64,000 nucleotides of DNA from Octopus vulgaris (lineage: Eukaryota). The stretch is taken from positions 39,370,001 to 39,434,000 of the forward strand of contig OX597821.1 in NCBI GenBank assembly GCA_951406725.2, given 5' to 3'. The position numbers and the translations under genes were made by a program. This document shows, in pieces, positions 54,100 through 63,462 of this stretch; positions within the stretch are counted from its first letter, which is position 1; each line of letters opens with the position of its first letter. The notes under the pieces were generated by a model. It searched no databases. It was not told the DNA's origin and saw only the letters and a list, made by a program, of their open reading frames with translations.

Positions 54100-55216
<1,117 letters not shown>

Positions 55217-55308
55217 GATTGATTGATTGATTGATTGATTCTAGTTTCAGCTTATGAGCTGTGGCCATGCTGGGGCACCGCCATTTGGTGTTGCTACTTG
55301 GTTTCACT

Positions 55309-58300
55309 TCATGGAGGCTTTCTAGCAACTGCTATTTGGTGCATGAGAGAGTTCGATGCAGCTGCCCTCATCTGCCCCTCCTGCCGTGAAGTTGGTTCAT
55401 CTGGGACACCTGACAGGAAGAGATCCAGCTTCATTTTAAAGACATCTGTATCCACCCCATGCAGGTCTCTCAGGTTCTTCGGGAGGATATTGAAGAGCTG
55501 TGGGCCTCGGAAGCCCAGGCTATCACAGAATCTTGTCCTACATCTTGATGGCAGGTTTGGAGTCCTAGGCACCACGCAGTGGCGCCCAGTTCTGGCATTT
55601 GCGTAACTCTCGATGCCAAAGTTCAGGACACTTCCCTCCAGGATCTTCCAGATGTATATTATGGCATATCTTTCCCGCCTACGCTCCAGGGAATATAATT
55701 TTAATCTCTTGAGTCTTTCCCAGTAGCTTACATTCTGCATAGAGGCTATCTTCTTTGTGTAGCTTCGTTGGATCGCCTCAAGTTCTGTGATCAACTTGAC
55801 ACTGGATGGTGACCATAGCTGAGAGCAATAGTCAAAGTGGCTTAGGACAAGTGTCTTCCAGAGGACCATCATGGTTTCTTGTTCTCTTGTTCTAAAGGTT
55901 CTAAGAATCCATCCAGCCAGCCGTCTACATTTCATTGTCAGTTTAGCAACATGTACATGAAAGGTCGCGTCATCACTCATGTGAATACCAAGGTCACGCA
56001 CTGATTGTGCCTCTGGGATTGCAATCCCTCCGGGTCCAGTGTATTCATTGGGTATTGCATTCAGTTTTGCATGCTGATAGTATAAAGCTTGAAACTTTCC
56101 AGCATTGAACTGCATGCTATTCTTTTCAGCCCACTTGTATATTTCGTCCAGCTCACATTGCAGGTGTTTAGTGTCCTCAGGGTTCTGTATTGCCTGTGAG
56201 ACTTTTGTATCATCTGCATAACTTGTGATCGTGGCTCTCTGCGTGGCTGAGGGCATGTCTGAGAGGGCCATTATGAACAGTAGTGGTCCCAGAACAGTGC
56301 CCTGCGGAACACCGCTCACTATTTGTGTGTTAATGGAGGTGGCCCCATTGGCTACTACCACCTGACTTCTATCCTTCAGAAAGTCATGAAGCCATTCTCC
56401 CAGTTTTCCAACTATGTTGAGATCACGCAGTTTGTGACATATCATTCCATGATCGACTTTATCAAAGGCCTTTGCAAAGTCGAGATATATCACTTCCACA
56501 TTTGAGTGGTTGAGCAGCCGTTTCAGCACCCAGTCATAGTGTTGTAGGAGCTGAGTTAAACAGCTTCTCCCTGGTCGGAAACCATGTTGGGTGTCGGGCA
56601 GCAGGTCATTCTCTTCAAGGAAGGTGATCAGCTTCCTTCTGACTATTCGTTCCATGACCTTGCTGATGTGTGAGGTCAGAGAGATAGGTCTATAGTTCTT
56701 GGCTTCCGCTCTGCTACCTCCTTTATGAATGGGGCATATTTTACCTTCCTTCAGTTTTCCTGGAAGTTTGCCAGCTGCAAGGAAGCTCTGAAAGAGGAAC
56801 TGCAGTGGTCTTGCTAGGACTCTCTTACATGCTTTTAGGAGGATTGCCGGGAATCCATCGGGGCCAGTAGCTGAGTCTGTTTTCATTTCATCTATAGCCT
56901 TGGTTACATCGTCTTCCTTTATATCGATGTAATCTATCGTCGCCGCCTCTGATTTTATATCTGCAGTGGTAAAAAAGTCAGTTGGATTGGTGATTTGGAG
57001 ATGCCCAAGGGGTGGAGTGAAAACACTCTTGAATTGCTCATTCAGTATTTCACTTACCCTCATTGGTTTTCCTGTAAGTGTGCCATCCTTTTCAAGGAGT
57101 GGCCCTATTCTACAGTGCACTGTAGCTGTTTCTTTGGCATACCTGTAGAAAGCTCTGGGGTTAGATTTTATGTTTTCTATAGCCCAGGCTTCTTTGTCTG
57201 CTCTTTCTTTTTCATGGGAGAGTTGCAGACATTTTTCGATTTCCAACAGTTTTATTTTTAGGCGGGACTTTTCACTGCTTTCAATCTGTTTGTTTAGGCG
57301 ATTTGAAAATTTCGTACGCCGTCTCATTAAAATTTTCCTCTCTCTGGGGATTTTGTTCTTGTGTACAGTGGCCTTTCTCTCTGGGACACATTTGTAGCAT
57401 ATGGCTTGCATTACAGACATGAATTGTTGAAGTTTCACATCGATGTCTGGCGAGGAGAGACATTCAGGCCAGTTTTGTTTGAGGATCTCTTTCTCAATTT
57501 GTTTCCAGTTTGCCTTATGGTAGTTCAAGCTGGAAAGATTTTGAGGGTTTCTTGTAGGCTGCATGTCCGTGCTCTCTTTTGGCCCATACATGGTCAGCTC
57601 TATCATGTTGTGATCCGAGAGTAGTGTCGGTGTCACTTTCACATTATGGATGAGATCCATGTCATTTGTGAAGCAGAGATCCAGTGTGTTACCTGCCCTG
57701 GTTGGTTGGAGTATTACCTGCTCCATGTACAGGGTGTTGATGAGGTTCAGGAGGGACCTCGCCTGTCCTCGTTCACATCTTGTCATTCCTGGGAGAGAAA
57801 GGCCCTCGGGCCATCTGACATTGGGCAGATTGAAGTCTCCCATAAGAAGCACACCTATGTGTTGTTCTAATGTGGTTAGAATTTCTTCTATTTTTATAAG
57901 GCAGTCTTCGAACTTGCCCACATGGCTTGGGGCATCTGGAGGGCGATATGTAGCACACACAACTACATCAAGTTGCCTAATATGTACAATTAGTGTGTCA
58001 CACACCGAGTTTGAGTATGACAAGAGGACCTGGGGTGTGAGGTCCTCACGGATGTACATAGCAACACCTCCATGACTCCTTTCTTTCCTGTCGGTCCGTA
58101 GTACAGCATACTGTGGTATGTGTAACTCCGCATCTGCTATGTCCGGTTTCAGGTGCGTTTCTGTAAGTGCTATGCATAAGGCTTGATTGCATGCAACAAA
58201 GTCTCTCAGGAACGGGATCTTTGTCCTGTTACTGAGTGTTTGCAGTCCTCTGATGTTCAGTAGGAGTATCGAGGTGAGGTGTACGTTGTTGCCGGCGGTG

Positions 58301-59169
58301 TCCATCCTGTGTCTGTTTGCTGTGGTGGTCTGGTATATAGTGGGTAGTCCCACCTGCGGGCTTGGTTTTGATGAAGCCAGGTCAGCTGCTGTACAATCTT
58401 TTGTGCCATGCACAAAAAAAGATTGTTGCTCAGCAGCTGCTCTTTCGACAACATCATGTTGGCTGTTTGTGGCGCGCACAACATCTGCGTACCTCCGCTT
58501 TGGGGCAGGTGGTGCGTAGTCCATCCCTTTTCTTTGTGTTGATGGTTTGTCCATCTGCCTCGTGTCTCTGTGGCAGGGTCCCCGATGTGCAAAGCGGCAG
58601 CCTGCACCTTCCTTTCCGTGCCAGCAGGAACCTCTCAGGTAGAACATACACACCCGTGTGCGCTGTTTGGTTCCATCCTTTGCGGTTCCACTTCTACTCC
58701 TGGTTGTTTCACTCTTTGGTCCTGCTTGAGCTTTTTCTTTTCCTTTAGCTCTTCCAGTCCTTCTTTTAGTTCTTCTTCCTCCCTCTACCTCTTCACCGGG
58801 TTCTCCGTCTCCATGGCCCTTGCTGCCGGTTGGAGAACTTGCACCTGGGTTCACTTCCCGGGCAGGTTTCTCATTCAAAACCTCCTCCTGGGCGTCCACC
58901 AGGTGGGGGTGACTTCTTTCATCGTCTCCATTCTTGCCATCTTTGCCCCGCTCGTTCTCAAAGATGGCATCAAGTGCGCCAATGTGCGACCGTACAAGCG
59001 CATATGAGCGCACGAATTCCTGTCTCTTTCGCTCCATCTGAGCCGCTGTCCTCTTGTAGCCTCTGCTCTTCAGCGCAGCCGCAATCACCTCGCTAGGGCT
59101 ATCTCCGCCGGCGCACTCCCATGCTCGTACGAATAAATCCAGCTCGTCACGTCTCCATGCTCTGGACAT
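55309..59169 (-). CDS. 1286-aa LINE polyprotein: Myb/SANT-like domain, CCCH zinc finger, APE endonuclease, reverse transcriptase
   Basis: APE motifs LLNIRGL, LTETHL, YRPP, GDFNLP, LDLCF, SDH; RT motifs [51 protein letters not shown]; CR1-type C-terminus [19 protein letters not shown]. Confidence 0.95.
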
Positions 59170-59224
59170 GCTGGATAATCCGTCTATCCGTTTATCTATC
59201 TAATTATGTTCGAGAGAAGACAGG

Positions 59225-60350
59225 AAGATATTAAGGCTAATTAGAAGATAGAGTACTTGAAAAAGAAATATTAACAATATTAAAGTTTGTGTAAAAACGT
59301 TATTTGGGTAAAAACGTTATTTAATCTTAAGGCTAATTAGGAGATAGAGTATCTGAAAATATATTAGCAATATTAATATTATATTAGAGTGTGGGTAAAA
59401 AAAAACGTTATTTAATCTTAAGGCTAATTTGGAGATAGAGTATCTGAAAATATATTAGCAATATTAATATTATATTAGAGTGTGGGTAATATTAAACGTT
59501 ATTTAATTTAATCTTAAGGCTAATTAGAAGACAGAGTATCTGAAAAATTATATATACAATATTAAGCAATATTAACCGTTATTTAATTTAATCTTAAGGC
59601 TAATTAGACGTTATTAATATTAAACGTTATTTAATTTAATCTTAAGGCTAATTAGAAGATAGAGTATCTGAAAATATATTAGCAATATTAATATTATATT
59701 AGAGTGTGGATAAAAACGTTATTTAATCTTAAGGCTAATCAGGAGATAGAGTATCTGAAAATATATTAGCAATGTTAATATTATATTAGAGTGTGGGTAA
59801 TATTAAACGTTATTTAATTTAATCTTAAGGCTAATTAGAAGATAGAGTATCTGAAGAAGTATTAACAATATTAAAACAATATTAAACGTTATTTAATTTA
59901 ATCTTAAGGCTAATTAACAATAATTATTAACAATATTAAACAATATTAAACGTTATTTAATTTAATCCTAAGGCTAATTAACAATAATTATTAACAATAT
60001 TAAACGTTATTTAATTTAATCCTAAGGCTAATTAACAATAATTATTAACAATATTAAACGTTATTTAATTTAATCCTAAGGCTAATTAGACGTTATTAAT
60101 ATTAAACGTTATTTAATTTAATCTTAAGGCTAATTAGAAGATAGAGTATCTGAAAAATTATTAACAATATTAAAACAATATTAAACGTTATTTAATTTAA
60201 TCTTAAGGCTAATTAACAATAATTATTAACAATATTAAACTATATTAAACGTTATTTAATTTAATCCTAAGGCTAATTTGACGGTATCAATATTAAACGT
60301 TATTTAATTTAATCTTAAGGCTAATTAGAAGATAGAGTATCTGGAAAATT
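59225..60350. repeat. AT-rich tandem array with conserved AAACGTTATTTAA(TTTAA)TC(T/C)TAAGGCTAAT core and variable linkers
   Basis: 16 cores here (TAAGGCTAAT at 59232 through 60316) plus 2 in the downstream duplicate. Confidence 0.95.
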
Positions 60351-60985
60351 ATTATATCGAGAACAGTTATTGAAAATGTAAACAAACCAAATGACGATCG
60401 CAACTTTAACTAAGATGTGGGCCTAAGTGAAAGATAAAATAGAATAATAAATAAAATATGAAATAGATGAAATTGATACTTAATCCAACAATGTGGTCTG
60501 GATAATTTTTTTGGTTTACGGGATTTTTTTCGGGAGAGATGCTTCTTTTTTCTTTCTTGCAGGAGATAACTTGATTCAGTTATTTTTGCACCATGTGCGT
60601 TTCGGCGAAAACTATATTAAACATTATTTAATTTAATCCTAAGGCTAATTTGACGGTATCAATATTAAACGTTATTTAATTTAATCTTAAGGCTAATTAG
60701 AAGATAGAGTATCTGGAAAATTATTATATCGAGAACAGTTATTGAAAATGTAAACAAACCAAATGACGATCGCAACTTTAACTAAGATGTGGGCCTAAGT
60801 GAAAGATAAAATAGAATAATAAATAAAATATGAAATAGATGAAATTGATACTTAATCCAACAATGTGGTCTGGATAATTTTTTTTTGGTTTACGGGATTT
60901 TTTTCGGGAGAGATGCTTCTTTTTTCTTTCTTGCAGGAGATAACTTGATTCAGTTATTTTTGCACCATGTGCGTTTCGGCGAAAA
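60238..60985. repeat. Near-identical ~372-374 bp tandem duplication
   Basis: ~60238-60611 repeated at ~60610-60985; visible differences are a longer poly-T run and one substitution. Confidence 0.95.
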
Positions 60986-61172
60986 TGAAAATTACTGTGT
61001 ATATGTATATATTTATATATATATTTTTAAAAATATTTTTAACCAAAGTGTTGTAGTGATCTCTATGACTTAGAGTTTTACGTTTTGCAACTACAGTGGG
61101 TTATTTCGCCGTTCTATGCAGACTTTTTCACAGAGCAAAGGCAATCACGTCTTTCTCTGCTGAAAACGGAAC

Positions 61173-63462
<2,290 letters not shown>

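What the first reader, a model, noticed from the sequence alone, without database searches (positions are those of the whole stretch)
59225..60700. 18-copy conserved-core / variable-linker array directly upstream of the RT ORF
Seen: TAAGGCTAAT cores at 59232, 59328, 59419, 59515, 59595, 59643, 59730, 59826, 59905, 59969, 60023, 60077, 60125, 60204, 60268, 60316, 60640 and 60688. Spacings are 96, 91, 96, 80, 48, 87, 96, 79, 64, 54, 54, 48, 79, 64, 48, 324, 48. The ~28-33 bp core is nearly invariant and packed with short palindromes (AACGTT, CTTAAG, TAATTA). Linkers come from a small reshuffled set, giving higher-order repeats (79/64 and 48 reused). The array begins ~60 bp before the ATG. Known: some LINEs have monomer-array 5' UTR promoters (mouse L1). 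Inference: a modular, copy-number-tunable regulatory or RNP-assembly array, possibly read by the element's own Myb-like or CCCH domains. With the frameshift-like junction and TA flanks, it makes this the best candidate for an undescribed system in the window.
Basis: partly seen in the sequence, partly recalled or inferred. Interest (0 to 1): 0.8.

Follow-up and report, generated by a model that had tools for sequence, protein, structure and literature searches.

The report
Repeat-array leader of an octopod LINE
A jumping gene, likely from an octopus, carries a chain of short related repeats just before its first gene, which other copies share and vary; the chain likely tunes the element's own promoter, a design known from other retrotransposons and seen here in a new form.

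Summary
The 18 cores and all spacings are real, but two cores come from a near-perfect 372-bp duplication, so the array has 16 units (59232-60345). Most linkers are related length variants of one 80-96 bp unit, not independent spacers. The palindromes and RNA folds are no better than shuffles. The array belongs to the retrotransposon family: a 602-nt contig from a public run crosses ATG, tether, unit 1 and core 2; three runs join array to leader; other copies show unit variants absent here. In the family the array precedes ORF1 (predicted Myb-like plus CCCH), not the RT: the window's single 1286-aa frame depends on one extra base. Best reading: an AT-rich VNTR inside the 5' UTR of a CR1-like LINE, likely remodelled by microhomology slippage and likely a repeated cis-regulatory module (0.5); a neutral passenger is the main rival (0.3). 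5' repeat arrays are described in mouse and other L1s, CR1-group elements and FoTeRs; SVA/LAVA VNTRs have the same architecture. Function and transcription are untested. New variant of a known kind; interest 0.3.

The parts
59232..60345 (-). VNTR of 16 units (48, 54, 64, 79-80, 87-96 bp), 21% GC, with higher-order blocks
   Evidence: carried and varied in other copies
59170..59231 (-). 62-bp unique tether between array and ORF1 ATG
   Evidence: crossed by a 602-nt contig of run X11
60346..60611 (-). unique leader, inner copy
   Evidence: joined to the array's outer unit in runs X4, X9, X11 (loose ends at 59366)
60609..60985 (-). second copy of a near-perfect ~372-bp tandem duplication (leader plus cores 17 and 18); real or assembly artefact not determined
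   Evidence: (D3, D5)
60986..61166 (-). outermost unique 5' leader; likely holds the transcription start
   Evidence: sequence; start site inferred
61167..61210 (-). 5' junction: three copies of the terminal hexamer separated by (AT)n runs
   Evidence: (D7)
58257..59169 (-). ORF1 of the family (about 300 aa); in this copy it reads on into ORF2
58987..59160 (-). predicted Myb/SANT-like three-helix domain
   Evidence: Pfam PF13837 E=0.05, below cut-off
58585..58662 (-). CCCH-type zinc finger
   Evidence: Pfam PF00642 E=0.043, below cut-off; weak CCCH hits in 5 of 7 relatives scanned
58414..58420 (-). T-run at the ORF1/ORF2 overlap; one base shorter in many other copies; candidate -1 frameshift site
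   Evidence: table 4
55309..58412 (-). ORF2: AP endonuclease (about 58179-57601) and reverse transcriptase (about 56730-55984), no stop
55216..55308 (-). short 3' UTR and four-base microsatellite tail
54100..55216 (.). TA-rich microsatellite, 3' flank
61189..63453 (.). TA microsatellite, 5' flank

Best explanation
The array is an AT-rich variable-number tandem repeat inside the 5' leader of a CR1-like LINE family, shared and varied among its copies, likely built from one 80-96 bp unit by microhomology slippage and likely serving as a repeated binding module that tunes the element's internal promoter. Steps: (1, shown) order on the minus strand is unique leader, array, 62-bp tether, ORF1, ORF2, microsatellite tail. 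(2, shown) other copies join array to ORF1 and to the leader and hold unit variants missing here. (3, shown) the longer linkers are homologous to each other, and blocks of units are duplicated. (4, inferred) slippage or unequal exchange between the 21 copies of one 8-base word makes new unit lengths and higher-order blocks. (5, inferred) transcription starts in the leader, so the whole array is copied with each full-length insertion. (6, inferred by analogy with mouse L1 monomers and the TRE5-A A module) host factors bind the repeated core and unit number changes promoter output.
For: Family-borne: 20 of 24 listed runs, from 8 studies (one may be the window's source) and 3 organism labels, hold the 5' part, 19 of them half of its words or more. 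In the 4 runs laid, all 30 bins had depth. One X11 contig of 602 nt (58756-59338, 1 other letter, no gap) bridges ATG, tether, unit 1 and core 2. Loose ends matching the leader leave the array in X4, X9 and X11 (4, 4 and 1 contigs). Three junction variants not in the window appear in X4 and/or X9. The 80-bp unit type, single here, stands in X1 at depth 6509 against 49-126 for the rearranged single contigs in the same table (depth is only a rough guide). One ancestry: the 79, 80, 96 and 64-bp linkers align with the 79-bp or 96-bp linker at P<=0.005, the 54-bp with the 79-bp at P=0.02, and one 48-bp linker with the core at P=0.003; 1.1 kb holds only 408 distinct 12-mers. Core constraint: in six disjoint same-type pairs 0 of 175 core sites against 8 of 253 linker sites differ, P=0.023. 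No AUG on the sense strand. Precedent: PMC9022269 (abstract), PMC5911963 and PMC4432496 (passages).
Against: No promoter, binding or expression data. The core/linker difference is modest, the core was defined as the shared part, and gene conversion among 16 cores would give the same result. The array is 21% GC, unlike the CpG-island L1 monomers (PMC5381506 passages), and lies inside the leader, so it cannot rebuild a promoter after 5' truncation as mouse monomers do. The second 48-bp linker aligns with nothing (P>=0.11). The sense strand has 27 ATTAAA words (a recalled variant poly(A) signal). Only 1 of the 32 contig pieces shown (of 8970) bridges ATG and array; none shown from X1, X4 or X9 does. 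Unit order in whole other copies was not seen, and the leader's read-level link to the 5' end was not obtained.
Confidence: 0.5

Rival explanations
1. Neutral passenger: an unstable AT-rich minisatellite arose in the source element's leader and is copied along without a function; the core looks conserved because of conversion and recent duplication.
For: Same-type units are 91-100% identical over their whole length; palindromes and folds at chance level; no Rfam match at E<=0.1 in 55200-60600; transposons are a known source of minisatellites (PMC9659126 passages).
Against: Kept at a fixed place before ORF1 in runs of three organism labels although it adds 1.1 kb to be reverse transcribed; core less changed than linkers.
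Confidence: 0.3
2. Self-reading array: the predicted Myb/SANT-like domain of the element's ORF1 protein binds the repeated core as DNA, giving feedback on its own promoter set by unit number.
For: Three-helix model (pLDDT 78); top structural matches are Myb/GARP DNA-binding domains (prob 0.97-0.99; Z 8.0, rmsd 1.7, 57 aligned); two Trp nearly invariant in 13 sequences; the core has a one-mismatch version of the recalled Myb consensus, exact in 1 unit.
Against: No Foldseek match at E<=0.001 and Z of 8 is common for helical domains; Pfam below cut-off; the domain could as well read the TA target or bind RNA or protein; the motif is short and recalled.
Confidence: 0.1
3. RNA-level element: the transcribed array acts in RNP assembly (CCCH finger), splicing or translation control rather than as DNA.
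For: AU-rich sense strand without AUG; six 3'-splice-site-like words in sense and none in antisense; CCCH fingers bind AU-rich RNA (recalled); the LAVA VNTR holds determinants of mobilization (PMC4432496 passages).
Against: Four unit types fold no better than shuffles (z -0.73 to +0.63); the six words descend from one ancestral word; the bridging contig is unspliced; no canonical donor word in the array.
Confidence: 0.07
4. Unrelated minisatellite or spacer-acquiring (CRISPR-like) array that only neighbours the LINE.
For: Core-plus-linker look; independent arrays elsewhere in the genome could not be searched (no genome held).
Against: Contigs join it to ORF1 and to the leader; core-bin depth is only about 3-11 times that at the ORF1 start, within what 16 units per element give (rough); linkers are homologous and reused.
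Confidence: 0.03

Closest known systems
SVA/LAVA central VNTR (PMC4432496; passages read)
   Same: Internal VNTR of a non-LTR element; a small set of unit types derived from each other by indels, arranged in ordered higher-order arrays, remodelled at microhomologies.
   Different: SVA/LAVA are non-autonomous primate composites with 40-50 bp units; this is an autonomous invertebrate LINE, AT-rich, 48-96 bp units, in the 5' UTR. No homology is implied.
Mouse and rat L1 monomer arrays with tether; 70-100 bp tandem motifs in horse, elephant, opossum L1 5' UTRs (PMC5381506 and PMC6454616 passages, PMC9022269 abstract)
   Same: Tandem units, then a unique tether, then ORF1; units differ between copies.
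   Different: Mouse monomers are ~200 bp, CpG-island type, terminal and hold the start sites; here units are short, of uneven length, 21% GC and lie behind ~450 bp of unique leader.
5' subunit arrays of CR1-group elements (PMC13343379 section 15 read; 'highly repetitive' 5' regions in PMC4120745 passage)
   Same: Repeat array near the 5' UTR of a CR1-group LINE, species-specific in sequence.
   Different: Described for ORF1-less vertebrate elements with 1-5 units of 100-500 bp; here 16 shorter mixed units before an ORF1.
FoTeR/MoTeR VNTRs (PMC12857005 passages) and TRE5-A A module (PMC5911963 passages)
   Same: VNTRs concentrated upstream of the coding region and variable between strains; TRE5-A has a modular 5' UTR with promoter activity and a -1 frameshift into ORF2.
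   Different: Other clades and hosts (fungal telomere-targeting REL elements; Dictyostelium tRNA-targeting elements); many unrelated motifs rather than one core family.

Membership tests
APE-type non-LTR retrotransposon (LINE) | AP endonuclease followed by RT in ORF2 | tested here: met
   PF14529 E=9e-12 and PF00078 E=4e-30, above cut-off; L1 ORF2p best PDB match
APE-type non-LTR retrotransposon (LINE) | Simple-repeat or poly(A) 3' tail, no LTRs, many 5'-truncated copies | tested here: met
   four-base tail; depth falls towards ORF1 in all 4 runs laid (rough)
CR1 group (Jockey superfamily) | RT phylogeny placing it in CR1/L2 | not testable with these tools
   no classified reference RTs available; 'CR1-like' rests on domain order, no RNase H hit and tail type, and on recall
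CR1-Zenon | No ORF1 and a poly(A) tail (PMC13343379 section 15) | tested here: not met
   ORF1 present; tail is a four-base repeat
Mouse L1-type monomer promoter | Tandem units joined to ORF1 by a unique tether | tested here: met
Mouse L1-type monomer promoter | Array forms the 5' terminus of the element | tested here: not met
   unique leader lies 5' of it in the window and is joined to it in 3 of 4 runs
Mouse L1-type monomer promoter | GC-rich CpG-island monomers of even length | tested here: not met
   21% GC, 48-96 bp
Mouse L1-type monomer promoter | Monomers carry promoter activity and start sites | not testable with these tools
   needs CAGE or reporter assays
Retroelement-internal complex VNTR (SVA/LAVA type) | Unit types derived from each other by indels, in higher-order arrays | tested here: met
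   one 48-bp linker unexplained
Retroelement-internal complex VNTR (SVA/LAVA type) | Unit content varies between copies | tested here: met
   junction variants absent from the window (tables 4, 5c, 7); whole-array order not seen
Retroelement-internal complex VNTR (SVA/LAVA type) | Remodelling at microhomologies shown by orthologous loci | not testable with these tools
   no second assembly; only the abundance of one 8-base word (21 copies) is shown
Spacer-acquiring array (CRISPR-like) | Unique, unrelated spacers between even repeats | tested here: not met
   linkers homologous and reused
Myb/SANT DNA-binding domain (ORF1 N-terminus) | Three-helix fold with spaced Trp; DNA binding | tested here: inconclusive
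   fold and Trp pattern fit, scores below firm thresholds; binding untested

The most novel reading that the evidence does not exclude
An autonomous octopod LINE whose ORF1 protein carries a Myb-like DNA-binding domain that reads a 16-fold repeated site in the element's own leader: a self-regulating retrotransposon whose feedback strength is set by VNTR length, with ORF2 made by -1 frameshifting.
Probability: 0.1. Interest if true: 0.65.

Novelty: new variant of a known kind. Interest (0 to 1): 0.3.

Why it matters
Repeat-built leaders recur in unrelated retrotransposons, and why is still open. This case adds an AT-rich, SVA-like mixed-unit VNTR in an intact, abundant invertebrate LINE, with natural unit variation among copies, so unit number can be set against expression and copy success. 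The ORF1 type (predicted Myb-like plus CCCH) is not named in the main text of the ORF1 survey searched (PMC4120745: 0 occurrences of 'CCCH' or 'Myb'). Without functional data it remains a variant of a known design.

Tried and rejected
No whole genome is held, so copies could not be counted or read end to end. No RNA holder listed; 'RNA?' labels are guesses and were not used as evidence of transcription. A read-level test of the outer leader, the 372-bp duplication and the 5' flanks was not obtained, so whether the duplication is real and whether TA is a preferred target stay open. Metagenome scan: 80 loci kept of 486, all distant (22-49% in the best segment); TRF on the upstream DNA of 15 of the 80 (those with 1.2 kb or more upstream) found no comparable array, only one 13-bp x 20 array; too distant to inform. 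Word-indexed search for a stand-alone ORF1 found 0 of 853 candidates; the full HMMER search then found 32. ESM Atlas: no usable hit. Rfam: none. Cluster look-up of 10 proteins gave one name only. Only one 74-bp, 76% match to the element elsewhere in the window. Palindrome enrichment and unit hairpins rejected. Earlier-findings look-ups by place and sequence were empty. Ten paper searches listed no description of this array; the O. vulgaris repeat library (PMC13282606, parts 1-2 of 3 read) is on Zenodo and its one supplement was listed but not read, and Repbase/Dfam are not available, so the family may already be catalogued.

Full report
Observation. The 18 core positions and 17 spacings are exactly as reported; the 10-mer is found nowhere else in the window and 0.004 copies are expected by composition. 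Cores 17 and 18 belong to a tandem duplication (60237-60611 = 60609-60985, identical runs of 261 and 106 bases around a 2-base indel), so the array proper has 16 cores over 59232-60345, 21% GC. The core has five variants. Its palindromes are not enriched (3 against 1.5, P=0.18) and four unit types fold no better than shuffles. Rfam has no match in 55200-60600.

Anatomy of the array. Read in the element's sense, unit lengths run 48, 64, 79, 48, 54, 54, 64, 79, 96, 87, 48, 80, 96, 91, 96, then a 62-bp tether and the ATG. Same-type units are 91-100% identical; blocks of 131-182 bp recur at 91-98% and TRF sees a 311-bp period. Of 8 linker types tested, the 79, 80, two 96 and 64-bp linkers align with the 79-bp or 96-bp linker at P<=0.005, the 54-bp with the 79-bp at P=0.02, one 48-bp linker resembles the core (P=0.003), and the other 48-bp linker resembles nothing. 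So these are mostly deletion and duplication variants of one unit, not acquired spacers. One 8-base word occurs 21 times and would supply microhomology (mechanism inferred). In six disjoint same-type pairs 0 of 175 core sites and 8 of 253 linker sites differ (P=0.023; all eight pairs 1 of 235 against 13 of 319, P=0.006). That fits selection, but also gene conversion and the way the core was defined.

The host element. A minus-strand LINE runs from about 61166 to 55216 between two TA microsatellites, with AP endonuclease, RT and a four-base tail. The best named relative is an Argonauta hians protein at 58%; earlier scan notes call this genome octopus (unchecked). 'CR1-like' is inferred from domain order and tail; no RT tree could be built. 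It is not a Zenon by the criteria of PMC13343379 (section 15).

Is the array part of the family? Yes. The 5' part is held by 20 of 24 listed runs, from 8 studies (one may be the source) and three organism labels; 8 of the 20 have only 45-141 million letters yet hold 0.48-0.59 of the words. I laid 4 of the 20 on 57900-59420. One X11 contig of 602 nt (58756-59338, one other letter, no gap) bridges ATG, tether, unit 1 and core 2; it is the only one of 32 pieces shown (8938 not shown) that does. Loose ends that match the leader (compared by eye) leave the array in X4, X9 and X11. The window's single 80-bp unit type appears in X1 at depth 6509, against 49-126 for rearranged single contigs, which suggests on the order of a hundred copies (the tool warns that depth is no copy number). 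Three junction variants in X4 and/or X9 are not in the window, and long and short cores occur in all four runs. Core-bin depth is about 3-11 times that at the ORF1 start, so no large free satellite is indicated (rough). Whole-array order in other copies was not seen.

The ORF behind the array. One base is missing at 58414 in 31, 17, 13 and 4 contigs of the four runs (21-49% of summed depth; the denominators include contigs that end there). With that base absent ORF1 ends at 58257 in another frame, whose tail matches stand-alone relatives: 26 of 39 identical to P0169, and 4 of 10 fetched relatives (of 32 found) end in the same motif. Two of the three closest ORF2 relatives begin at this junction. 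The family is therefore two-ORF, with an overlap at a T-run that may be a -1 frameshift site (inferred; precedent TRE5-A, PMC5911963 passages); this copy is fused by mutation or by a homopolymer error. ORF1 starts with a predicted three-helix domain (pLDDT 78, single sequence) whose best matches are Myb/GARP domains (no E<=0.001; Z 8.0, rmsd 1.7, 57 aligned, a level common for helical domains), with two nearly invariant Trp, followed by a weak CCCH finger.

How it likely works. Because a unique leader lies 5' of the array and is joined to it in other copies, transcription likely starts upstream and the array is copied whole. It cannot buffer 5' truncation as mouse monomers do (PMC6454616 passages). 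I rate a repeated host-factor binding module of the internal promoter at 0.5, a neutral passenger at 0.3, reading by the element's own Myb-like domain at 0.1, an RNA-level role at 0.07 and an unrelated array at 0.03. None of the functional steps was tested.

Comparison with what is known. Tandem units in LINE leaders are described for mouse, rat, horse, elephant and opossum L1 (PMC5381506 passages; PMC9022269 abstract), for CR1-group elements (PMC13343379; PMC4120745 passage) and for FoTeR/MoTeR (PMC12857005 passages). The mixed-unit, higher-order architecture is that of SVA/LAVA VNTRs, which that 2015 paper called the only non-LTR elements with complex internal repeats (PMC4432496 passages). 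PMC10294476, PMC11203168 and PMC9659126 were seen as passages, PMC13282606 as parts 1-2 of 3. Ten searches listed no account of this array, but repeat libraries and that paper's supplement were not seen. Unchecked scan notes report 5' arrays in an RTE of this genome and in a CR1 of another, which suggests the design is recurrent.

Verdict. Observation confirmed with corrections; interpretation partly supported. It works like the repeat-built leaders of other non-LTR elements and is built like an SVA VNTR; it fails two membership features of the mouse monomer promoter. New variant of a known kind; interest 0.3.

Noticed in passing
window 58257-59169 (-): ORF1 family with a predicted Myb/SANT-like domain, a CCCH finger and a conserved C-terminal helix; 32 relatives found; this domain pair is not named in the main text of the ORF1 survey searched.
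   Followed up: partly
window 58395-58425 (-): The ORF1/ORF2 overlap T-run sits inside a predicted 13-bp hairpin (z -1.8 for the 96-nt piece); candidate -1 frameshift site; this copy has one base more than many others.
   Followed up: partly
window 61167-61210: The element's terminal hexamer occurs three times, separated by (AT)n runs: possible repeated priming or slippage at the 5' junction.
   Followed up: no
window 60237-60985: Near-perfect 372-bp tandem duplication of leader plus two units; recent event or assembly artefact.
   Followed up: partly
window 54100-55216 and 61189-63453: Element sits between 1.1-kb and 2.3-kb TA-rich microsatellites; target preference untested.
   Followed up: no
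window 59232-60345 (-): Six long units carry a 3'-splice-site-like word in sense; a strong polypyrimidine-AG acceptor-like stretch lies on the + strand near 60540-60562.
   Followed up: no
window 55241-55300: The 3' end resembles, from memory only, the tail of a common octopus SINE; a possible LINE-SINE partner. One paper search gave no confirmation.
   Followed up: partly
window 58069-58375: Many single contigs in runs X1, X4, X9 skip 65-350 bases here or leave at 58212 and 58368: related subfamilies or deleted copies that share the endonuclease start.
   Followed up: no
L005:1-258: 13-bp x 20 tandem array upstream of a distant (30%) LINE ORF2 in a metagenome contig.
   Followed up: no
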